A stretch of 44,434 nucleotides of DNA from NCBI GenBank assembly GCA_016217925.1, contig JACRFK010000004.1, positions 1 to 44,434 of the forward strand, in the 5' to 3' direction. Shown one piece after another: positions 1,488 through 26,880 of the stretch (within the stretch, counting starts at the first letter, position 1; the number at the start of each line of letters is the position of its first letter). The notes beneath the pieces were generated by a model, which was not told the origin of the DNA, searched no databases, and saw only the letters and a program-made list of their open reading frames with translations. Position numbers and translations under genes: made by a program. This DNA comes from Candidatus Kaiserbacteria bacterium. GTDB taxonomy: Bacteria; Patescibacteriota; Minisyncoccia; Phycocordibacterales; UBA2100.

Positions 1488-1567
1488 CCCCGTTAGAGGC
1501 TCCAAAAACTGTGTGTATGTGGAAATCTTGAACCTCGAAACCTTATCGGAGGTTGCCTCTAACGGGG
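1488..1567. mobile_element. MITE-like terminal-inverted-repeat (TIR) element, copy 1 (80 bp)
   Basis: Ends CCCCGTTAGAGGC / GCCTCTAACGGGG; TCAA on both flanks (1484-1487, 1568-1571). Confidence 0.7.
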
Positions 1568-7138: not shown

Positions 7139-7170
7139 GCCCATTAGAGACGCTACGCGCTCTAACGGGC
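7139..7170. repeat. short hairpin sharing the TIR-family ends
   Basis: GCCCATTAGAG-ACGCTACGCG-CTCTAACGGGC; no flanking duplication. Confidence 0.65.
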
Positions 7171-7284: not shown

Positions 7285-7350
7285 CCCCGTTAGAAATTGC
7301 GCCCACGCTTGCGCGCCCTAATGGGCTGGGGCGGGCTATTTCTAACGGAG
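7285..7350. mobile_element. MITE-like TIR element, copy 2 (66 bp)
   Basis: CCCCGTTAGAAAT / ATTTCTAACGGAG; TCAA on both flanks. Confidence 0.7.
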
Positions 7351-15029: not shown

Positions 15030-15722
15030 TTACTCCACTGAGGCAGCGAGGTCGGCTTCGGCTTGCTGTATCGCATCGGTGTCCTCAGGCATGTGTGCCT
15101 TGAGGAACTCAAGACGCGCGCGAATGTATTGCGAGGTCGTCTGCGCAGCGATCATGCGGTCGTATGCGACTCGCGCGCTCTTGTAGGCGCCGAGTCGTTC
15201 GAGCAGCTTTCCCATGTTGTGCCACGCAAGCCCGGTCTTCGTAGAATCTATCGCGAGCGCATAATTCAGATAGGTGAATTCTTTTCCACCATCGCCGAGC
15301 AGTTCATATTGATTGGCGATGCTCACGTAGAGCTCGTAGTTGGTGTGCGCTCCGGAATTGATAAGACCTTTCAATCGAGTTATATCCGCGCGCACGCTCG
15401 CCTCAAGCTGTCCGCTGTCTTTATGTGTACCTGCAAAATCCCATGAGGCTACAACGTCTCCCGGCACAAGGGAAAATACCGATGGAAACGCTACGGGCGG
15501 TGTCGCTTTCTGTTTTGTAATGGGAGAGGTCTGTGAAGTGGAGCTGGAAGGGGTCGCGGTTGTCTCTGCCGAGGAAGTTGAGGCCGTTCCCGGTAGAGGC
15601 AGGGACGGTGAGGCACTCTCCTTCGCCCCCAATGTCCCAATAACACCGATGGCGATAAGCACGGCAATACCTGCATAGATTCCATACTCTCTCTTCACCC
15701 CGTTAGAAGCTTCATTCATCAT
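15030..15722 (-). CDS. membrane-anchored protein with TPR-like C-terminus
   Basis: N-terminal TM, S/T-rich linker, AWHNMGKLLERLG TPR-like motif. The start region overlaps TIR copy 3. Confidence 0.7.
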   Translation of the reverse strand: MMNEASNGVKREYGIYAGIAVLIAIGVIGTLGAKESASPSLPLPGTASTSSAETTATPSSSTSQTSPITKQKATPPVAFPSVFSLVPGDVVASWDFAGTHKDSGQLEASVRADITRLKGLINSGAHTNYELYVSIANQYELLGDGGKEFTYLNYALAIDSTKTGLAWHNMGKLLERLGAYKSARVAYDRMIAAQTTSQYIRARLEFLKAHMPEDTDAIQQAEADLAASVE

Positions 15723-15790
15723 AAGAAATATTTATTGTGAGTAACTAAAGAAGTTGCGGCGTGATAATCTCCAGCTGGCTTCTAACGGGG
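15698..15790. mobile_element. MITE-like TIR element, copy 3 (93 bp)
   Basis: CCCCGTTAGAAGC / GCTTCTAACGGGG; TTCA on both flanks. Confidence 0.72.
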
Positions 15791-15810: not shown

Positions 15811-15870
15811 CCCCATTAGATAACCAAGGTCGAGCTCGTCGTGACAAGCATAAATTTCTACCTCACGGGG
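15811..15870. mobile_element. degenerate TIR element, copy 4 (60 bp)
   Basis: CCCCATTAGA / CCTCACGGGG; TGTA on both flanks. Confidence 0.5.
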
Positions 15871-19287: not shown

Positions 19288-22200
19288 TTAGAAGTTGACC
19301 GACTTGTTGCCGATCGTGAGTGGAAGCGTTCTTACCAGGTAATCACCCGTCCAGTCAGAGGTCGAAGCTCCCGTTGCACTCGAAGAGTGATCGGCGAGAT
19401 CAGACCAGTCAGACCATGCGAATGAAGCTGCGGTGCTCACACCTTGCGTACCAGCGGCTGATCCGAAGACAGCAGTCGAAGACGCTGTCGTTTGCGGATT
19501 GGCGATGGATGCACTGATGTTGTTCGCACCGGACGCGATACCGCCGACGGTTCCACGAAGCTCGTATGTCTTCGAGGTGCCTGCGTCAACCGTCTCGACG
19601 GTCGTCGGACGGAAGTGGACCAAACACGTTGTCTGATTCAGACAAGCGTCGAGAGTTCCGAGGTCAGTCGCGACAACTGTCGTTGTTGCCATGGTACCTG
19701 CAATCTGGTTGGCACCACTCCATACTGCGAGAGTGGTTGTCGCACCAACGGTGACAGCTGCAGTCTTGTTGAGGGTGATGACCACAGAGCCCCAATCGAT
19801 CTTACCTGCCGCATCAGCCGTGACGGTGAAGCGTCCGAGGACCTGGTTGGATCCTGCGTTGAGCGTCGCCGCGGCGGAATTGTCAGTCGAGAGGACCGGT
19901 TTGGACTTGCGGACGTACATCGTACCCTTGCCGCTTGTGGCTGCACCGTTGAGGTTCGCGTAGGAAGCCATCGTTGTCGATGCTGTGCCTGCGCTATCCA
20001 CTGCCTTGAAGCCTGTGATCCAGCTGAGGTATGCCGAGATTGCTGTACCGGACGTGGCACCGTTCGCGACTGTCGGAATGTTGACGTAGACATCAATGGT
20101 CTGCGTCTCATTCATCGGAATAGCGAAGGTGAGACCGGTGAAGGTCGCCGTCGAGTACACCTGCGTCCCCGAAGAGAGCGAAAGTGCCTGCGAGACACCT
20201 GCCGTATTGCCCGGCCACTTGAGGGTGACGGACGAGACGGATGTCGCGGCGTTTGCCGGAATAAGGACCGCAAGCTCTTGGACCGTGAAGCCAGAGTTGG
20301 ACGCTGTGAAGTTGAAGGAACCGACTTTTACGTCGTTGCTACCTGCAATGACGTTTGCATTGTCAGGCGATGTTCCTGTCGACTGTGTGAGCGAGCCCGT
20401 ACCGACCGTGATGGTCTGGAGGTTGACATCGTTGCCGGTGTCAGCAGTTCCGTTGGTATCGAGCGTGACCGAGTTGCTCGTCATGATGCCGAGACCGCCC
20501 GTCGTTTCATCCAACGTAGCGATCCACGTACCGATGTTCGAGCCGGACTTGATGTTACCGACAAGGTCGATAGTCTTGGTCGATGAGACCGGGATATCGA
20601 AGTTGACGGAGAACGTGTTGTCCGTCGAAGGCGAAGGCTTCGCCGTTCCGATCTGTGCACCCGTCGCAGAATCAACGAGGCGGAGGTCCGTGATGGATGC
20701 CGCTTCGTCAGCTGAGAGGTTGACAACGATCGTGTTTACGTTCACGCCTTCCGTCGAACCCGACGAGAGAGTGAACGAGCCGAGACGAGCGTTGCTCGTA
20801 CCAGCGATGATGGTCTGATTGCCGTACCCTGAGTACTTCGTCGCTGTGAGTGTCGCAGACGAGATAGTGAGGGTGTTGCCTGCCACATCCGAACCCGGTA
20901 CGCTCACCGAAGTGAGAGAGACCTGGCCGAACGCGTTTGAAGAACCATCGTCAAGCGTGATTGCTACTGTCTGACCGGAGGTCAAAGCTGTACCAGTCGA
21001 GCTCTTCGCATCTGCGTAGATGTCGATGATGTGTACCGCTCCCGCCTTCGCGATGAAGGAAGAACCGAAGGTGAATTCAATGTCCGTACCATCAGTCAAG
21101 TCCTTGGTAGAACCGACCTGTACGCCATCGACGAATACTTTACCGTTGTCGAGACCAGCCTGCGCGCCAGCCGATGTGTCGGCGTTGACGTTGAGGGACT
21201 CGATCTTCACGTCTTCACCCGATGCACGGAGCTCGAAGGACGCGAACTTTTGGTTCGACGCTCCGAGTGTGATGTTCGAGGAAGGCGAGGTGTTCGCTTT
21301 CACGACCGAGACGGCAGCCGAGCCGATCGTCTGTACGCCCGAGGAGCGTGCAGAGAAGGCTGAGCCAGCCGCAGTCGCAAGTATCGGTTGGTTGAGCTCG
21401 GTGTCGATGAAGCGAGCGTCTGCCGCGCGACGAAGCGAGAACTGCATCGTGAGGCTTGAGCCACCGACGACGTCACCGACGACCTTGATGGTTCGTCCGC
21501 CCGATTCGAGGCGTTTTGGTGTTGCCGTGAGGTCCCATGCGACAGAAGTTTCTCCTGCCACGAGGTTCGGTACGGCCTGGCCGACTTGGACACCGTCTAC
21601 GTAGAGACGGAGATTCCTGACGTCGTTAAGACCGATAGAACCGAGGTTGCGGAGCTGGAACGAGGTCAGATTGACCGCGCGCGTGCCGATAGTCGCCACG
21701 TTCTGCCAGACCACGACGTCGTTTGCTGGCGTCAGGTTTGTGTTCGTTCCCGGGGTTGTGCCGGAAGCGAAGTCGACCGTTGCGAGAGTCGCCGAAGAGA
21801 CCAAGAGCGCTGAGCCCGTGATCGGAAGGACGACAGACGAGTCGAGAAGACCGGACGCGCTGACGCTCGTGAGCTGGACGCCGACCTGTTGGCCGTTCGT
21901 CGAGCCTGCGATGTCTGAGCGGACGGAGATCGTGATCATGCCGCCGGCCGGTACCGTGAAGAGACCGGACGGAGCGTTGAAGTTGAACGCCGTGTTGCTG
22001 ACCCCTGCGGAATCAGTAAGACGCGTTGCCCCATTGAAGAGGTAGACGTTGGCGAGCGTCGAATCAGATGACACGCCGATGCGCTTGAACGCAAGGTTCG
22101 TGACAGTGATCGGAGCGCCTGTCGGGTTCGAGAAGGTGAACTTCGCGAGTTCCGCGATGGCCTGTCCTTGGACGAGCGCGCCGTACGTCGGGTTGTCCGC

Positions 22201-22725
22201 AGCGAGCGCGACCTTGAGGCCGTTGCCCGTTACTGGAGTGCCCGGAATTCCGGGTGTACCCGGTGTGCCTGCGCACATCGAGTTCGCCTTTGCTCGGGTC
22301 ATCGGACCCCAGATGCCGACCGGCGAGATGCCGTTGGCAGACTGGAACTTCGAGACCGCAGCACTTGTCTTTGCGCCGAAGTACGACGTTTCATTGCCCG
22401 GAGAGCCAGCGCCTGTTGCGGCAATCTGAGCCCCGTGAGTGTTAAGGAATTTTTGTACCGCCATCACTTCACCTCCAGACTTACCGACTGAAAGGTTCTG
22501 CGTGAAGGTCGCGCAGCTTGCGCCGGCCGTAGACGAGCCGCCCTGCAATGCTGCGATTTGTGCCATCAACGACGCGATCTGTGCTTGGAGATCAGAAAGC
22601 GTGTCCGCTTTTGCCGGAGTGGCAAACGAGAACGCGAATCCGAAGACCAAAGCAACAGCAACGACGATTGCGGCAACATTTTTTGTTGCTAATGCTTTAC
22701 TCATAGTTAATTTTGACTTTTTCAT
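19288..22725 (-). CDS. large secreted S-layer-like surface protein with N-terminal peptidoglycan-binding domain
   Basis: Signal peptide, coiled-coil, FTQNLSVG..GGEVMAVQKFLN, YFGAKTSAAV and long Thr/Ser/Ala-rich beta repeats. Alternative start 22704. Confidence 0.82.
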   Translation of the reverse strand: MKKSKLTMSKALATKNVAAIVVAVALVFGFAFSFATPAKADTLSDLQAQIASLMAQIAALQGGSSTAGASCATFTQNLSVGKSGGEVMAVQKFLNTHGAQIAATGAGSPGNETSYFGAKTSAAVSKFQSANGISPVGIWGPMTRAKANSMCAGTPGTPGIPGTPVTGNGLKVALAADNPTYGALVQGQAIAELAKFTFSNPTGAPITVTNLAFKRIGVSSDSTLANVYLFNGATRLTDSAGVSNTAFNFNAPSGLFTVPAGGMITISVRSDIAGSTNGQQVGVQLTSVSASGLLDSSVVLPITGSALLVSSATLATVDFASGTTPGTNTNLTPANDVVVWQNVATIGTRAVNLTSFQLRNLGSIGLNDVRNLRLYVDGVQVGQAVPNLVAGETSVAWDLTATPKRLESGGRTIKVVGDVVGGSSLTMQFSLRRAADARFIDTELNQPILATAAGSAFSARSSGVQTIGSAAVSVVKANTSPSSNITLGASNQKFASFELRASGEDVKIESLNVNADTSAGAQAGLDNGKVFVDGVQVGSTKDLTDGTDIEFTFGSSFIAKAGAVHIIDIYADAKSSTGTALTSGQTVAITLDDGSSNAFGQVSLTSVSVPGSDVAGNTLTISSATLTATKYSGYGNQTIIAGTSNARLGSFTLSSGSTEGVNVNTIVVNLSADEAASITDLRLVDSATGAQIGTAKPSPSTDNTFSVNFDIPVSSTKTIDLVGNIKSGSNIGTWIATLDETTGGLGIMTSNSVTLDTNGTADTGNDVNLQTITVGTGSLTQSTGTSPDNANVIAGSNDVKVGSFNFTASNSGFTVQELAVLIPANAATSVSSVTLKWPGNTAGVSQALSLSSGTQVYSTATFTGLTFAIPMNETQTIDVYVNIPTVANGATSGTAISAYLSWITGFKAVDSAGTASTTMASYANLNGAATSGKGTMYVRKSKPVLSTDNSAAATLNAGSNQVLGRFTVTADAAGKIDWGSVVITLNKTAAVTVGATTTLAVWSGANQIAGTMATTTVVATDLGTLDACLNQTTCLVHFRPTTVETVDAGTSKTYELRGTVGGIASGANNISASIANPQTTASSTAVFGSAAGTQGVSTAASFAWSDWSDLADHSSSATGASTSDWTGDYLVRTLPLTIGNKSVNF

Positions 22726-23254
22726 CCAGCACCACTTTTGCGCTTCGAACTCTGGTGACTTTGATACGCTGAACGTATGCGTTCAATCATTTCAAAACCC
22801 TAAAGCTCAACCTGCAAAAGTGGTGCTGGACCGTACACTCCACCCTTTCGACGAGGAGTCGTGTACGTTGTGTGCCTTCTGCTAAATAAATAACTGATAA
22901 CTGAAGACAACTAATAATTTGGTCTCTGCCCACCAACGTGGTAGGAAAAACCCCGAACATTTGCTAGCCCTTCCACCGCCAAGATGACGGGACCAGGATT
23001 AGCAGCGAGGAGTGAGTGGAATTTCAGTCATGCAATCGTTACCGGACAAGATCAGGATATTCAGTAACACGTCTCAGAATTTTATGTATCCGAGAAGCGG
23101 GCCATAAACGGCCTGTTATTTTTCTCTATTCAAATGTCAACGAACTGCACAGAGGACACTCGCCCTCATGCGCCTACACGACATCCTATGGGGATGCCGT
23201 CGCACAATTATATACTAGGGACCATGCTGCACATGAATGCACCGCTCCCCCGTT

Positions 23255-23474: not shown

Positions 23475-24221
23475 CTAAATGACAATGGAGTACTTACTCC
23501 AACGCTTAAGGCCTGTTTTTCTGACCCTACCGGACCCTACGAGAGTGACGAGATGGCGTTGTATCATTTTTTCACTGTATTCGGGCAAATTAAAGGCGAT
23601 GTCACGAATCCCAAGCTCCCCGCCAGCACGCAATACAGAAACAATGCGCTCCTCTCGGACGTTTGAGCTGCGTCTGTCTGATATCTTATCGGACATTGTT
23701 GGTGTGTCCTTTACGACCATCTTGTCCTTTACGGCAACAATGTCCTTTACAAATTTTTCATCGATATCCAGTGGACCGTCTTTTGAAAGGGCGAATGTCT
23801 CTGACGACGGCGAGCTCTGGGACACGCTCAAGAAGTTACCAAGCTCGTCGAGACCCTCGATCATAGTGTTTGTGTTCTGTAGGGAGAGAAAGCCGCCAAC
23901 GGCAAGCACACGCACAAGGGATATCAAATGTCGTATTGATGCCCGACTTAATACGACTTTTTGCGAGTCGGTCCTCATCTCATCGCGCAAAGCAAGGATG
24001 CTTCCGAGCATTTTGACGGCCTCTTCGCGAACGGAGACCCTGATGGCCTCTCTCGCCTCTATATGGTTTGTTACCAAAAAGAGTGCGGCAACAAGGCGCT
24101 CGGCACGGCTATACGCCCTATCAGCCGACTGGTTAGCCCCAAAAGGACTGGTACGTACCGTCTGTTTATCAAAATAACGAAATAGAGGATTCGACTTCTG
24201 TATGTCTCTTTTGTCGTCCAT
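23475..24221 (-). CDS. conserved hypothetical: helical N-domain plus C-terminal DeoR-like winged HTH
   Basis: C-terminal REERIVSVL..GELGIRDI..YSEKMIQRHL..LV..GRV.KTG.KRWSKY. Confidence 0.7.
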   Translation of the reverse strand: MDDKRDIQKSNPLFRYFDKQTVRTSPFGANQSADRAYSRAERLVAALFLVTNHIEAREAIRVSVREEAVKMLGSILALRDEMRTDSQKVVLSRASIRHLISLVRVLAVGGFLSLQNTNTMIEGLDELGNFLSVSQSSPSSETFALSKDGPLDIDEKFVKDIVAVKDKMVVKDTPTMSDKISDRRSSNVREERIVSVLRAGGELGIRDIAFNLPEYSEKMIQRHLVTLVGSGRVRKTGLKRWSKYSIVI

Positions 24222-24432
24222 TATATGTCCGTAGTATGTACTAGGAGCGTAAAGTACAGGGGACGTCTGTGAGTATATAAAGGACGTAGAAACTTCGCAA
24301 TCCCCACCCACGGTCCATTTCCCAGGCCAACTTCCAGGCCGACTCTCCGAGTGTTTCGAGCATCGGGTGAGTTCCCCTGTCCCCGTAGCATGTAAGTACT
24401 AGTTTGTAACATGTCGCTCCGAAGCGAGATGA

Positions 24433-24511
24433 CCCCGTTAGAAGTTAAGGAATATTCGACTTTGCAGCCGACTAATTTTTTGAAGCATTTTTGTCGTCAC
24501 TTCTAACGGGG
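24433..24511. mobile_element. MITE-like TIR element, copy 5 (79 bp)
   Basis: CCCCGTTAGAAGT / ACTTCTAACGGGG; TGA on both flanks (3 bp only). Confidence 0.65.
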
Positions 24512-24531
24512 TGATATGATGTCACCATGAA

Positions 24532-24643
24532 TCCCGTTAGAAATCGCGGACACGCGAAGTCGAATTTCTCAATAGGGTACGTTATTGGCGATAACCGAAT
24601 GGGGTGGGCCGCTTTGATAGGCCGCGTCCTATTTCTAACGGGA
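24532..24643. mobile_element. MITE-like TIR element, copy 6 (112 bp)
   Basis: TCCCGTTAGAAAT / ATTTCTAACGGGA; TGAA on both flanks. Confidence 0.72.
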
Positions 24644-26880
24644 TGAAAGCAAAGCAGAAACGCGGGAAAGAGAAGGATCCGAATAAGGATGACGACGAAG
24701 TAAAGATCAGTTCCGTGAGCACCGAAGCGATGCGGGGCGTGTTCGCTATATTCTGTGTCGCACTCGCCGGATTTCTTGTACTCGCGGAGCTCGGCGGCGG
24801 AGGCACTATCGGCGGCACACTCCACGAGTGGCTCACGTGGCTCTTGGGCGTGGGGTATCTTCTCCTTCCCCTTTCTCTCATGCTTCTTGCCACTCTTATT
24901 TTCCGCTCATTCGAACGCAACTTTGGATGGGTGCAGTTCATAGCAATGACGATTTTCTTGCTATCCGGACTCGGTCTTATCAACCTCGCCTTCTCCGGCC
25001 GTGGCGGTATTCTCGGCATCAGCATCTCAAATCTCATTGTATCCGGAGTGGATACAACGGCGACCGTTATCTTTCTTATCGCTTTTATCATCGCGGCGCT
25101 CGTCGTTGCGTTCGACATCCATCTCGGTGTGGTAGCGGCGAAGATCGCAGGTCTTTTCCGCAATACTGCCGAGAATAATCCGGAAAATGAGGTATCGGAC
25201 GTGCCTGTCGTCGGGCTCCCGGAAGAAACGCCTCAAGAAGAAGCCGAGGCTAGCGCCGAAGTAGCAGAGGTTCCCGAAAGTAAGTCGGGGGGGTCTGGTA
25301 ATCCCATAGCAAAATTCTTCAGTGGCACAGACGCGACGACAGATGGGTTCCCGATCATCGCGGCAACTGGAAGCACCTATATTCCCCCACCGGTATCGAT
25401 ACTTGCAAAAAATAAGGGCAAACCAGAGGTCGGCGATGTGAAGGCCAATATGAACATCATCAAGCGGACCCTTCAGAATTTCGGCATCCAGGTAGAGATG
25501 GACGAGGCATCCATCGGCCCGACCGTGACGCGCTATTCGATGAAACCTGCCGAGGGCGTGCGCCTCTCGAAGATAATCGCTCTCCAGAGCAATCTCGAGC
25601 TTGCGCTTGCCGTCTCCCCCGTACGCATCGAAGCGCCGATACCTGGAAAATCACTCGTCGGCATCGAGGTTCCCAATATCTCACGCACGACACTAGGCCT
25701 CGCACCACTCATTTCTGATGACGCCTACCTCCAATCCGACAAGCCGCTTTTGCTCGCGCTCGGCCGCTCTATCACCGGAACACCCCATTTTGCGGACCTC
25801 GCACGCATGCCGCACATGCTCGTCGCCGGTACGACTGGCGCGGGCAAGTCCGTCGCCATACACGACTTCATCGTCTCACTCCTCTATCGATGCGGGCCCG
25901 AACGTCTGCGGTTCATCATGGTCGACCCGAAACGGGTCGAGCTCACCGTGTATAATTCTATCCCCCACCTACTGACTCCCGTCATCACCGACGCAAAGAA
26001 AGCGATACTCGCGCTCAAATGGCTCGCAAAGGAAATGGAACGCAGGTACAACATCCTCGAAGCTGAAGCGGTCCGCGATATTGCCTCGTACCATAAAAAC
26101 GTCGTGGCGCCGGCACTCGAGAAGGCTGCGAAGAGAGAGGACGACAAGCCGCTGCCGGAAGCGATGCCGTATATCGTACTTGTTATCGACGAATTGGCCG
26201 ATATCATGTCCACCTATCCGCGAGAGCTTGAAAGCGGCATCGTGCGCCTGGCACAGATGAGCCGCGCAGTCGGCATTCACCTGCTCCTCTCTACTCAGCG
26301 ACCGAGTGTGAAGATCATCACAGGTCTCATCAAAGCAAACATCCCCGCGCGCGTCGCCATGCAAGTCTCCTCGCAAATAGACTCACGCACCATTCTCGAC
26401 GGGGGTGGCGCCGAGAAGCTCCTAGGGGCGGGCGACATGCTCTTCCTCTCGGGCGAAATGTCCAAGCCGCGCCGCATCCAGGCACCGTTCATCTCCGAAG
26501 ACGAAGTCAAAAAAGTCGTCGCGCACATTCTGAGGAACAACGACGGGACACTTCCGAGTGAGATAGATTTCTCGGACTCACGCATGGGCCAAGGTCCCGA
26601 CCCGATATTTTCCTCCTCGATAGGAGACGACAATGAAGAGGACGAGCTCTATGCCGATGCGAAGCGCACGGTCATAGAAGCTGGCAAAGCGTCTACTTCC
26701 TATCTGCAGCGCAAGCTTGGCGTGGGCTACGCGCGCGCGGCAAAACTCATCGACATGCTCGAAGAGCGCGGTGTCGTCGGGCCTCAAGACGGCGCGAAGC
26801 CACGCAGCATCATAGGAGAGGGCAACGCGGACGAGCTTGCACAAGAATCAGAAGAGGGCGAAGAAACACTCGAACGTTAG
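24643..26880 (+). CDS. ftsK: DNA translocase FtsK/SpoIIIE
   Basis: N-terminal TMs, GPTVTRY, MPHMLVAGTTGAGKS, MVDPKRVEL, GAEKLLGAGDML and gamma domain STSYLQRKLGVGYARAAKLID. Confidence 0.96.
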   Translation: MKAKQKRGKEKDPNKDDDEVKISSVSTEAMRGVFAIFCVALAGFLVLAELGGGGTIGGTLHEWLTWLLGVGYLLLPLSLMLLATLIFRSFERNFGWVQFIAMTIFLLSGLGLINLAFSGRGGILGISISNLIVSGVDTTATVIFLIAFIIAALVVAFDIHLGVVAAKIAGLFRNTAENNPENEVSDVPVVGLPEETPQEEAEASAEVAEVPESKSGGSGNPIAKFFSGTDATTDGFPIIAATGSTYIPPPVSILAKNKGKPEVGDVKANMNIIKRTLQNFGIQVEMDEASIGPTVTRYSMKPAEGVRLSKIIALQSNLELALAVSPVRIEAPIPGKSLVGIEVPNISRTTLGLAPLISDDAYLQSDKPLLLALGRSITGTPHFADLARMPHMLVAGTTGAGKSVAIHDFIVSLLYRCGPERLRFIMVDPKRVELTVYNSIPHLLTPVITDAKKAILALKWLAKEMERRYNILEAEAVRDIASYHKNVVAPALEKAAKREDDKPLPEAMPYIVLVIDELADIMSTYPRELESGIVRLAQMSRAVGIHLLLSTQRPSVKIITGLIKANIPARVAMQVSSQIDSRTILDGGGAEKLLGAGDMLFLSGEMSKPRRIQAPFISEDEVKKVVAHILRNNDGTLPSEIDFSDSRMGQGPDPIFSSSIGDDNEEDELYADAKRTVIEAGKASTSYLQRKLGVGYARAAKLIDMLEERGVVGPQDGAKPRSIIGEGNADELAQESEEGEETLER

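What the first reader, a model, noticed from the sequence alone, without database searches (positions are those of the whole stretch)
24429..24647. Double insertion at the ftsK promoter and start codon
Seen: removing both elements gives TGA-TATGAT-GTCACC-ATGAAAGCAAAG, an extended -10 six nt before an ATG encoding MKAKQK. With the elements in place, the last A of copy 6 plus the duplicated TG recreates ATG at 24643. Inference: a leaderless ftsK mRNA gained a roughly 115-nt structured 5' UTR whose terminal stem includes the start base, which should change translation of a key division gene.
Basis: partly seen in the sequence, partly recalled or inferred. Interest (0 to 1): 0.65.

Follow-up and report, generated by a model that had tools for sequence, protein, structure and literature searches.

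The report
Mobile hairpins on ftsK promoter and start
Two small mobile hairpin elements have landed on the promoter and on the start codon of the cell-division gene ftsK in an ultra-small (Kaiserbacteria) bacterium; the same element family sits, always in one orientation, on the start codons of about 30 other genes in this genome, many of them essential.

Summary
E5 (24433-24511, duplicated TGA) lies directly upstream of the extended -10 box TGATATGAT. E6 (24532-24643, duplicated TGAA) splits the old ATG, and its last base rebuilds ATG at 24643. Relatives show the predicted empty site: one reads TGATATGATGTCACCATGAAAGCAAAGCAG exactly. All 27 same-genus ftsK genes have TGnTAnnAT, about 22 of them 6-7 nt before the start codon, so an ancestral leaderless ftsK is well supported.

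The case is not specific to ftsK. This 0.98-Mb genome holds about 50 copies with ends CCCGTTAGA/TCTAACGGG. 32 sit exactly on start codons (def, dnaX, nusG, rplB, infC, smc and others), in fixed orientation (23:0). Five sit on -35 boxes and six abut -10 boxes. One 277-bp copy encodes a 94-aa GIY-YIG nuclease that is read from the host gene's old ATG.

It stops at a TGA overlapping the new ATG (ATGA). I infer that ftsK is translated by termination-reinitiation. This is untested, because no RNA data exist.

E5 is old: a matching copy at the same site in a distant relative, footprint-like remnants in closer ones. E6 is young. I found no published description; earlier notes of this scan already record the family.

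The parts
24430..24432 (+). Upstream copy of the 3-bp target duplication (TGA) of E5
   Evidence: TGA directly flanks both ends of E5.
24433..24511 (+). E5: 79-nt non-coding hairpin element (ends CCCCGTTAGAAGT / ACTTCTAACGGGG), inserted directly upstream of the extended -10 box
   Evidence: A copy with about 75% identical interior sits at the same site, with the same TGA duplication, in metagenome locus L043. No copy in the other 102 ftsK loci examined.
24491..24496 (+). TTGTCG, a -35-like hexamer supplied by E5, 18 nt upstream of TATGAT
   Evidence: Promoter scan, (9 of 12 matches, TG before the -10). A consensus match only.
24512..24520 (+). Extended -10 promoter element TGATATGAT (its TGA is the downstream copy of the E5 duplication)
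   Evidence: TGnTAnnAT is conserved upstream of ftsK in all 27 same-genus relatives.
24527..24646 (+). Old ftsK start codon (ATG 24527, 6 nt after the -10), now opening a 39-codon ORF (MNPVRN...VLFLTG) through E6; its TGA stop (24644-24646) overlaps the new ATG
   Evidence: translation. The first codons (MxPVR) and last codons (LTG*) correspond to those of the 94-aa nuclease ORF of the full-length copy.
24528..24531 (+). Upstream copy of the 4-bp target duplication (TGAA) of E6
24532..24643 (+). E6: 112-nt hairpin element (TCCCGTTAGAAAT...TCCTATTTCTAACGGGA), in the same orientation relative to ftsK as the nuclease ORF of the full-length copy is to its host gene; its last A is the first base of the new ATG
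   Evidence: orientation marker CCT bulge. The RNA fold closes a 12-14 bp stem that includes A24643 and U24644. Absent from the closest relatives.
24644..24647 (+). Downstream copy of the TGAA duplication
24643..26880 (+). ftsK coding sequence (745 aa) starting at the rebuilt ATG
   Evidence: FtsK_alpha, FtsK_SpoIIIE, FtsK_gamma. The N-terminus MKAKQKRGK matches relatives whose ATG follows the -10 by 6 nt.
15698..15790 (-). Second start-codon copy in the window (TSD TGAA on the minus strand, rebuilds GTG of a 222-codon ORF)
15811..15870 (-). Variant copy (CCCCGTGAGG...CTAATGGGG on the minus strand) with TACA duplication, inserted inside the -10 box TACACT of the same gene: a second '-10 plus ATG' double insertion
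1488..1567 (-). Copy with TTGA duplication sitting on the -35 box of a TTGACA-17-TATACT promoter (minus strand)
7285..7350 (-). Copy with TTGA duplication on the -35 box of a TTGACG-16-TACTAT promoter (minus strand)

Best explanation
Shown by sequence comparison. The region holds two members of a family of small mobile hairpin elements. The family has 13-14 bp inverted ends, N-CCCGTTAGA...TCTAACGGG-N', and makes a 3-4 bp target duplication. Its only coding member in this genome (277 bp) encodes a 94-aa GIY-YIG nuclease. E6 inserted between the A and the TG of the ftsK start codon, duplicated TGAA, and rebuilt the ATG with its own last base. E5 inserted directly 5' of the extended -10 box, duplicated TGA, and left the box intact.

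Inferred from relatives. Before the insertions ftsK was transcribed from TGATATGAT with the A of ATG as +1, that is, as a leaderless mRNA.

Inferred, not shown. Transcription still starts at the old A (24527). Ribosomes load on that 5'-terminal AUG, translate the 39-codon remnant ORF through E6 and so melt the hairpin that buries the new AUG. They terminate at the UGA of AUGA and reinitiate on the ftsK AUG at 24643. On this reading the insertion is largely tolerated, not a dedicated regulator.

The ftsK case is one instance of a genome-wide habit. In this genome the family lands on start codons in one orientation, and also on -35 and -10 boxes.
For: Anatomy and duplications.

Empty sites in relatives, and conserved TGnTAnnAT, in about 22 of the 27 relatives 6-7 nt before the start codon.

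Leaderless layout genome-wide. TANNNT lies 6 nt before 12.9% of longest-ORF starts against 0.8% of internal ATGs. Shine-Dalgarno-like motifs precede only 11%.

Family. About 50 copies longer than 50 nt, 32 exactly on ATG start codons with a TGNN duplication. Orientation markers read 23 sense to 0 antisense. The two arms covary, and 0 of 500 shuffles reach the observed score.

Full-length copy at C8:58824-59100. It has the same ends and a TGAT duplication. Its ORF starts at the host's old ATG, matches GIY-YIG (PF01541, E=2e-15), and stops at a TGA overlapping the rebuilt ATG.

Recurrent targeting of this very site. Independent copies sit on the ftsK ATG in L026, L044 and L074 among the 103 other ftsK loci examined.

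Relay ORF. The old ATG is kept in 29 of the 33 start-codon copies first listed. The ORF from it reaches the element's end in 18 of 31 copies, against 9 of 31 if the elements are flipped in silico. Typical endings are TAA 4 nt before the start, or ATGA/GTGA overlaps.

Essential genes carry the same arrangement: def, dnaX, nusG, rplB, infC, smc.

No canonical -10 (TANNNT) lies at leaderless distance inside the conserved right end (read from the sequence). The promoter scan finds only the old promoter.
Against: - No transcript or protein data exist for this organism, so the transcription start and the relay are untested.
- 13 of 31 start-codon copies have an internal stop in the relay frame. Read-through to the element's end is therefore not obligatory for the family, and the sense-versus-flipped contrast (18 vs 9) is modest and confounded by relatedness of copies.
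- The E6 ORF is open in both orientations, so its openness alone is weak evidence.
- The nuclease has not been shown to move the elements. Three other free-standing GIY-YIG genes exist in the genome.
Confidence: 0.72

Rival explanations
1. A new transcription start inside or at the end of E6 restores a short or leaderless ftsK mRNA, so the hairpin and the old ATG are not part of the message.
For: The right end reads TATTTC-7 nt-ATG, which has the right spacing for this genome's leaderless promoters. 13 of 31 copies have stops in the relay frame, yet their host genes must still be expressed.
Against: TATTTC lacks the conserved last T of TANNNT, and the promoter scan finds nothing there. Copies of the C...G type have GCTTCTAACGGGG with no -10-like hexamer at all. 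The old ATG is retained in 29 of 33 copies.
Confidence: 0.12
2. The long hairpin in the leader is cut by a double-strand-specific RNase (RNase III type), giving an mRNA whose 5' end lies at or near the new AUG, which is then translated as a leaderless message.
For: The closing stem is 12-14 bp and extends to about 20 bp with a bulge in related copies. The arms are kept complementary across the family.
Against: There is no evidence of processing. Complementary arms are equally expected for DNA-level recognition by a structure-specific nuclease. Cleavage would have to be exact to yield a 5'-terminal AUG.
Confidence: 0.08
3. The two elements were recruited as a dedicated regulatory leader for ftsK, for example a thermosensor or a translational attenuator of cell division.
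For: The start codon is sequestered in a stable stem. E5 is conserved at this site in a distant relative.
Against: The same arrangement occurs at about 32 unrelated genes. E6 is absent from all the closest relatives. No Rfam family matches. The interiors of the copies are unrelated to each other.
Confidence: 0.05
4. Placement at start codons and promoter boxes reflects only a weak sequence preference (T-N-N-A in AT-rich DNA) plus survival of harmless insertions, not real targeting.
For: Most duplications have the form TNNA (TGAA, TTGA, TGGA, TACA). In every class the duplication regenerates the functional motif. The genome is about 85-90% coding, so few neutral sites exist.
Against: 43 of about 50 copies sit on one of three exact landmark positions, and almost none lie in other intergenic DNA. 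Orientation relative to the host gene is 23:0, which survival alone predicts at about 2:1. The ftsK ATG was hit independently in 4 lineages.
Confidence: 0.15

Closest known systems
Bacterial MITEs co-transcribed with genes, e.g. Correia/NEMIS elements of Neisseria (own knowledge)
   Same: Short non-coding elements with terminal inverted repeats and a short target duplication. Many copies per genome. They sit next to genes, fold as hairpins in the mRNA, and can supply promoter-like hexamers.
   Different: Correia elements duplicate TA and are not tied to start codons. Here the cut falls between the A and TG of the start codon (or on -35/-10 boxes), orientation is fixed, and the only coding relative carries a GIY-YIG nuclease, not a DDE transposase.
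Mycobacterial interspersed repetitive units (MIRUs; Supply et al. 1997, own knowledge)
   Same: Small intercistronic repeats that carry short ORFs whose ends overlap the stop and start codons of the flanking genes, read as translational coupling devices.
   Different: MIRUs are tandem direct repeats without inverted ends or target duplications, and have no associated nuclease gene.
Ssn nucleases with NTS/SRM hairpin repeats (Chenal et al. 2025, PMC11893778)
   Same: A single-domain GIY-YIG protein of about 94 aa flanked by inverted-repeat sequence that is also scattered through the genome in many copies. The authors note the IS-like architecture.
   Different: The published SRM search motif is absent from all 49 copies here. 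Ssn repeats are self-contained 20-50 nt hairpins on each side of the gene and are not reported at start codons. Ssn is described as a modulator of transformation, not as a transposase.
IS200/IS605 and REP/RAYT systems (own knowledge; discussed in PMC11893778)
   Same: Hairpin-ended elements handled by a small structure-recognising nuclease. Insertion is orientation-specific next to a short target.
   Different: Those use HUH/Y1 enzymes and single-strand 'peel and paste' without target duplication. Here there is a 3-4 bp duplication and a GIY-YIG enzyme.
GIY-YIG homing endonuclease genes, e.g. I-TevI (own knowledge)
   Same: A GIY-YIG nuclease linked to repeated invasion of one cognate site. 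E6 with its short flanks is nearly identical in a relative whose ftsK is only about 82% identical, as co-conversion in homing would give.
   Different: There is no intron or intein context. Targets are hundreds of different genes that share only a start codon. The elements have inverted ends and target duplications.

Membership tests
MITE / TIR-TSD transposable element | Terminal inverted repeats | tested here: met
   14 bp at 100% for E6 and 17 bp at 94% for E5. 93% of cells paired over 14 positions in 48 copies.
MITE / TIR-TSD transposable element | Target-site duplication that differs between copies | tested here: met
   TGAA, TGGA, TGCG, TGAG, TGAT, TTGA, TACA and TGA directly flank individual copies.
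MITE / TIR-TSD transposable element | Empty sites in related genomes | tested here: met
   L008 and L007 are empty for E5 and E6. L011 is the empty partner of the filled L044.
MITE / TIR-TSD transposable element | Longer autonomous relative with the same ends that encodes a known (DDE-type) transposase | tested here: not met
   The only longer copy (277 bp) encodes a 94-aa GIY-YIG nuclease and no transposase domain.
Ssn / SRM system (PMC11893778) | Small single-domain GIY-YIG nuclease flanked by the repeat | tested here: met
   PF01541, E=2e-15, 94 aa, between the two inverted ends. Closest solved structure is the UPF0213 protein 1zg2.
Ssn / SRM system (PMC11893778) | Repeats match the published SRM degenerate motif | tested here: not met
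   0 of 49 copies match. 2 matches in the whole genome against 5-12 in shuffled genomes.
Ssn / SRM system (PMC11893778) | Nuclease belongs to CDD family cd10448 and cuts single-stranded DNA next to its hairpin | not testable with these tools
   No CDD library is available here, and biochemistry is required.
Leaderless mRNA gene | -10 box at about 6-7 nt before the start codon, no Shine-Dalgarno sequence | tested here: met
   TATGAT-GTCACC-ATG in the reconstructed site and in L008. About 22 of 27 relatives have a 6-7 nt spacer. There is a genome-wide peak at 6 nt.
Leaderless mRNA gene | Mapped transcript 5' end at the A of the start codon | not testable with these tools
   No RNA runs hold this sequence.
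MIRU-like translational coupling element | Short ORF whose start and stop overlap or abut the neighbouring start/stop codons | tested here: met
   The 39-codon ORF runs from the old ATG to the TGA of ATGA. 18 of 31 copies read through to within 9 nt of the element's end.
MIRU-like translational coupling element | Tandem direct-repeat structure | tested here: not met
   Copies are single inverted-repeat units.

The most novel reading that the evidence does not exclude
The family may be a nuclease-driven mobile element that recognises promoter landmarks as such, not a DNA word. In this genome its copies sit on the 5' edge of -35 boxes (5 of 5 with a TTGA duplication and a proper -10 16-17 nt downstream). 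They also sit on the 5' edge of, or inside, -10 boxes (6 copies). Most sit between +1 and +2 of leaderless genes, in fixed orientation.

This pattern would fit targeting of RNA-polymerase-bound or melted promoter DNA by a structure-specific GIY-YIG (Slx1/UPF0213-like) nuclease. Three further observations bear on how it moves:
- Footprint-like remnants (TGA-CGGGG-TGA) at the E5 site in relatives suggest excision.
- A nearly identical E6 in an 82%-identical relative suggests homing-like spread of filled alleles between species.
- Three of six -10 copies share a gene with a start-codon copy, which suggests that a resident copy attracts a second one.
Probability: 0.25. Interest if true: 0.85.

Novelty: new variant of a known kind. 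Interest (0 to 1): 0.6.

Why it matters
The finding shows how a reduced genome with leaderless genes tolerates a mobile element placed inside the start codons of essential genes such as ftsK, dnaX, nusG, rplB and infC.

It gives a concrete, testable case for translation relay: leaderless initiation on the old AUG, a short ORF through a hairpin, then reinitiation at an AUGA overlap.

It also points to a possibly new way for DNA elements to move and choose targets: a 94-aa GIY-YIG nuclease, fixed orientation, and landing on promoter and start landmarks.

For annotation, these insertions can mislead gene callers about start codons and promoters in CPR genomes.

Tried and rejected
- RNA evidence. 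No RNA run holds the ftsK sequence, so the transcription start could not be tested.
- Known RNA families. Rfam finds nothing in 24300-24800 at E up to 1.
- Clustering the interiors of the copies by BLAST. Almost no two copies share 30 nt or more beyond the ends, so subfamily trees were not possible. Orientation was instead read from short asymmetric markers.
- Genome-wide search for excision footprints (duplication, then a few terminal bases, then the duplication again). It gave 2738 hits against 2160 for a reversed control, dominated by chance 3-nt middles. It is uninformative, so the footprint claim rests only on the ftsK promoter alignment.
- Ssn/SRM membership. The published motif is not met.
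- Literature. 'miniature inverted-repeat + leaderless + start codon' and 'Patescibacteria + leaderless + promoter' gave no papers. 'GIY-YIG + inverted repeat + start codon + mobile element' gave only unrelated organelle and phage papers.
- Other GIY-YIG genes as element-borne copies. The three other small GIY-YIG genes lack the inverted ends.
- Alternative upstream start GTG 24604. It lies inside E6, has no counterpart in relatives and no ribosome-binding motif, and is not favoured.
- Assembly artefact. Rejected by the independent contig.
Full report
**1. The observation**

Reading 24100-24900 shows two inverted-repeat units.

- E5 runs from 24433 to 24511 (C-CCCGTTAGAAGT ... ACTTCTAACGGG-G) and is flanked on both sides by TGA.
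- E6 runs from 24532 to 24643 (T-CCCGTTAGAAAT ... ATTTCTAACGGG-A) and is flanked on both sides by TGAA.

The repeat finder reports arms of 17 nt (94% complementary) and 14 nt (100%). The 10-mer CCCGTTAGAA with up to one mismatch occurs 11 times in the window against 2.2 expected, and 0 of 100 shuffles reach that number.

The ATG at 24643 is made of the last A of E6 plus the duplicated TG. It opens a 745-codon ORF with the three FtsK domains. A contig assembled independently from the probable source run matches 24200-24900 without a single difference.

**2. Relatives confirm the empty site and a leaderless ancestor**

I fetched the ftsK loci of 27 same-genus genomes.

- The two closest species representatives lack both elements. 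They read TGATATGATGTCACC-ATGAAAGCAAAGCAG (L008) and TGATATGATGTCTCC-ATGAAAGCAAAG (L007).
- Every one of the 27 has an extended -10 box (TGnTAnnAT). In about 22 it lies 6-7 nt before the ATG or GTG.
- No Shine-Dalgarno sequence is visible before these starts.

Genome-wide, TANNNT lies exactly 6 nt before 12.9% of longest-ORF starts, against 0.8% of internal in-frame ATGs. Shine-Dalgarno-like motifs precede only 11% of ORFs. The inference that ftsK was a leaderless gene is therefore well supported by comparison. No transcript data exist to show it directly.

**3. It is a genome-wide family, not an ftsK event**

The window is contig C2 of a 980,822-bp, 17-contig genome. Earlier notes of this scan call it Kaiserbacteria. 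A scan for the two ends finds 59 pairs, about 50 of them longer than 50 nt.

Start-codon copies:
- 32 lie exactly on the ATG of a long ORF (78 to 738 codons downstream).
- The duplication is always TGNN, the base before the upstream copy is A, and the element's last base (A or G) rebuilds ATG or GTG.
- Host genes include def, dnaX, recO, nusG, rplB, infC, smc, purE and a cytidylate-kinase-like gene.

Most of the remaining copies also sit on landmarks:
- Five have a TTGA duplication and sit on the first four bases of a -35 box (TTGACA, TTGACG or TTGACT), with a TANNNT 16-17 nt downstream.
- Six abut or split a -10 box: E5 (TGA|TATGAT), C3:58407 (TGA|TATAAT), C2:15811 (TACA|CT), C8:25546 (|TATACT), C2:104743 (|TACAAT) and C1:25151 (|TATATT).

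Three of these six share their gene with a start-codon copy: ftsK, the gene at 15698 in this window, and def on C1. With about 3.5% of genes carrying a start-codon copy, that coincidence has a probability near 1e-3 by my own binomial estimate.

**4. Orientation and ends**

The two arms covary. The terminal pair is C-G in 33 copies and T-A in 14. Positions 11-13 switch together, giving 83 double-sided changes against 31 in shuffles, and 0 of 500 shuffles reach the observed score.

Two short asymmetric markers define orientation:
- a CCT bulge before the right arm, shared with the 3' end of the nuclease gene;
- TATGGC before the right arm of the 80-nt subfamily.

Relative to the host gene they read 16:0 and 7:0, that is 23 sense and 0 antisense. 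E6 is sense.

**5. The coding member**

C8:58824-59100 (minus strand) is a 277-bp copy with the same ends and a TGAT duplication on the ATG of a NUDIX gene. Its 94-codon ORF starts at the host's old ATG, matches GIY-YIG (PF01541, E=2e-15), and ends in a TGA overlapping the rebuilt ATG. The nearest solved structures are UPF0213 proteins (1zg2, E=1e-7), with a weak match to Slx1.

The E6 ORF has the same first codons (M-x-P-V-R), the same last codons (L-T-G-stop), and the same length class modulo 3. E6 therefore looks like an internally deleted or replaced derivative in the same orientation. Three other small GIY-YIG genes in the genome lack the inverted ends. That the nuclease moves the elements is an inference.

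**6. What the insertions do to ftsK**

E5 leaves TGATATGAT intact and places TTGTCG 18 nt upstream. The promoter scan still calls this promoter and no other on the plus strand.

If transcription still starts at 24527, the message gains 116 nt. The predicted fold is -47.7 kcal/mol (z = -2.0), and its closing stem pairs the A and U of the new AUG.

The old AUG remains at the 5' end and opens a 39-codon ORF that runs through E6 to the UGA of AUGA. Across the family:
- The old ATG is retained in 29 of the 33 start-codon copies first listed.
- The ORF from it reaches the end of the element in 18 of 31 copies, against 9 of 31 when the elements are flipped in silico.
- The usual endings are TAA four bases before the start (length class 1), an ATGA or GTGA overlap (class 2), or an in-frame fusion (class 0).

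I therefore favour leaderless initiation on the old AUG, translation through the hairpin, and reinitiation on the ftsK AUG. This step is inferred. The statistics are modest and the copies are not independent. Thirteen copies have internal stops, so other routes must exist for them.

The conserved right end has no TANNNT at leaderless distance. TATTTC-7 nt-ATG lacks the final T, which argues against an internal promoter but does not exclude one.

**7. Age and mobility**

Among the 103 other ftsK loci (27 species genomes, 76 metagenome contigs), independent copies with different interiors sit on the ftsK ATG in L026 and L044 (TGAA) and in L074 (TGGC). L011 is the empty partner of L044.

An element about 75% identical to E5 throughout lies at the same TGA|TGATATGAT position in L043, whose FtsK is only 74% identical.

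The closest relatives have short G-rich remnants between two copies of TGA at that position:
- TGA-CGGGG-TGATATGAT in L008;
- TGA-GGGG-TGA in L038 and L039;
- TGA-GGGA-TGA in L007;
- TGA-GG-TGA (or TGC) in L037 and L036.

I read these as remnants of a lost E5: both copies of the duplication plus the last bases of the element. This is one locus in related genomes, so it counts as one or two events. A genome-wide footprint scan was uninformative.

E6 is young by contrast. It is absent from the eight closest relatives. Yet a contig from a different groundwater sample (run X3) carries the promoter, E6 and the first 33 nt of ftsK with 2 differences in 168 nt, followed by 83 differences in the next 470 nt. 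That fits recent insertion or transfer of the filled allele.

The exact pattern ATGNNY-CCCGTTAGA-N50-80-TCTAACGGG-RTG occurs:
- 14 times in this genome;
- in 12 of 41 genus genomes;
- in 20 of 301 genomes of the order (18 of 190 genera);
- never when the pattern is read backwards.

This genome is the most colonised in the sample.

**8. Comparison with what is known**

The elements behave like MITEs in having inverted ends, variable duplications, empty sites and many copies. They lack a DDE partner.

The nearest published system I found is the Ssn family: a 94-aa GIY-YIG single-strand nuclease flanked by hairpin repeats, with an IS-like layout noted by the authors (PMC11893778). The published SRM motif is absent from all 49 copies here, and that paper reports no start-codon association.

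MIRUs share the coupling-ORF idea, but they are tandem direct repeats. Literature searches for start-codon-seeking MITEs or for leaderless promoters in Patescibacteria found nothing.

Earlier notes of this scan already describe the family in many CPR genomes. I had found the start-codon pattern before reading them. I took from them the lead to test the 277-bp copy for GIY-YIG, and the pointer to the second double insertion at 15.7 kb; I checked both here.

**9. Verdict**

It is incomplete about the cause (a genome-wide mobile family) and about the consequence (a retained old AUG with a relay ORF).

- the -35 and -10 landing classes;
- the strict 23:0 orientation;
- recurrent independent hits on the ftsK ATG;
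- an old copy of E5 at the same site in a distant relative, with footprint-like remnants in closer ones;
- a near-identical E6 in a diverged relative.

Noticed in passing
window 22725-22830 (minus strand): A different inverted-repeat unit (TCCAGCACCACTTTTGC ... GCAAAAGTGGTGCTGGA) ends on the A of the ATG of the 1145-aa peptidoglycan-binding-domain gene (19288-22725). I see no target duplication on its upstream side. It may be a second, unrelated family that rebuilds a start codon.
   Followed up: partly
G000 contig C9:415-3981 (minus strand): A second ftsK-like ORF of 1241 aa. Its two halves match FtsK residues 5-410 (62% identity) and 401-743 (81%) and are separated by an insert of roughly 440 aa (intein-like?). 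G029 has the same layout as its only ftsK, so C9 may be a mis-binned contig from a related species.
   Followed up: no
window 7139-7170; also C1:157662, C1:307686, C2:95836, C2:183466: Minimal hairpins of 27-32 nt made of little more than the two family ends (for example CCCATTAGAGACGCTACGCGCTCTAACGGG). They may be collapsed copies of the same family.
   Followed up: no
L008, L007, L038, L039, L036, L037, L041: 10-20 nt upstream of TGATATGAT: Footprint-like remnants at the E5 site: TGA, then 2-5 G-rich bases identical to the end of E5, then TGA. They suggest loss of the element that left both copies of the duplication.
   Followed up: partly
run X3, contig laid on window 24508-25145: The promoter, E6 and the first 33 nt of ftsK have 2 differences in 168 nt. 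The following 470 nt of ftsK have 83 differences. The same contig matches 24200-24285 but is about 48 nt shorter in between, so it probably lacks E5.
   Followed up: partly
window 24270-24290 and all relatives' ftsK upstream regions: The motif AGTATATAAAGGAC is conserved about 200-250 nt upstream of ftsK in nearly all same-genus genomes. On the minus strand it contains the TATACT -10 box called for the divergent winged-helix-like gene.
   Followed up: no
G000 whole genome against 340 relatives: This genome has 14 exact matches to the start-codon insertion pattern. The next highest counts among 301 genomes of the order are 7 and 5, which points to a lineage-specific expansion.
   Followed up: partly
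C1:264986-265198 and C6:39164-39364: Two free-standing small GIY-YIG genes lie directly upstream of tRNA genes, without the family's inverted ends.
   Followed up: no
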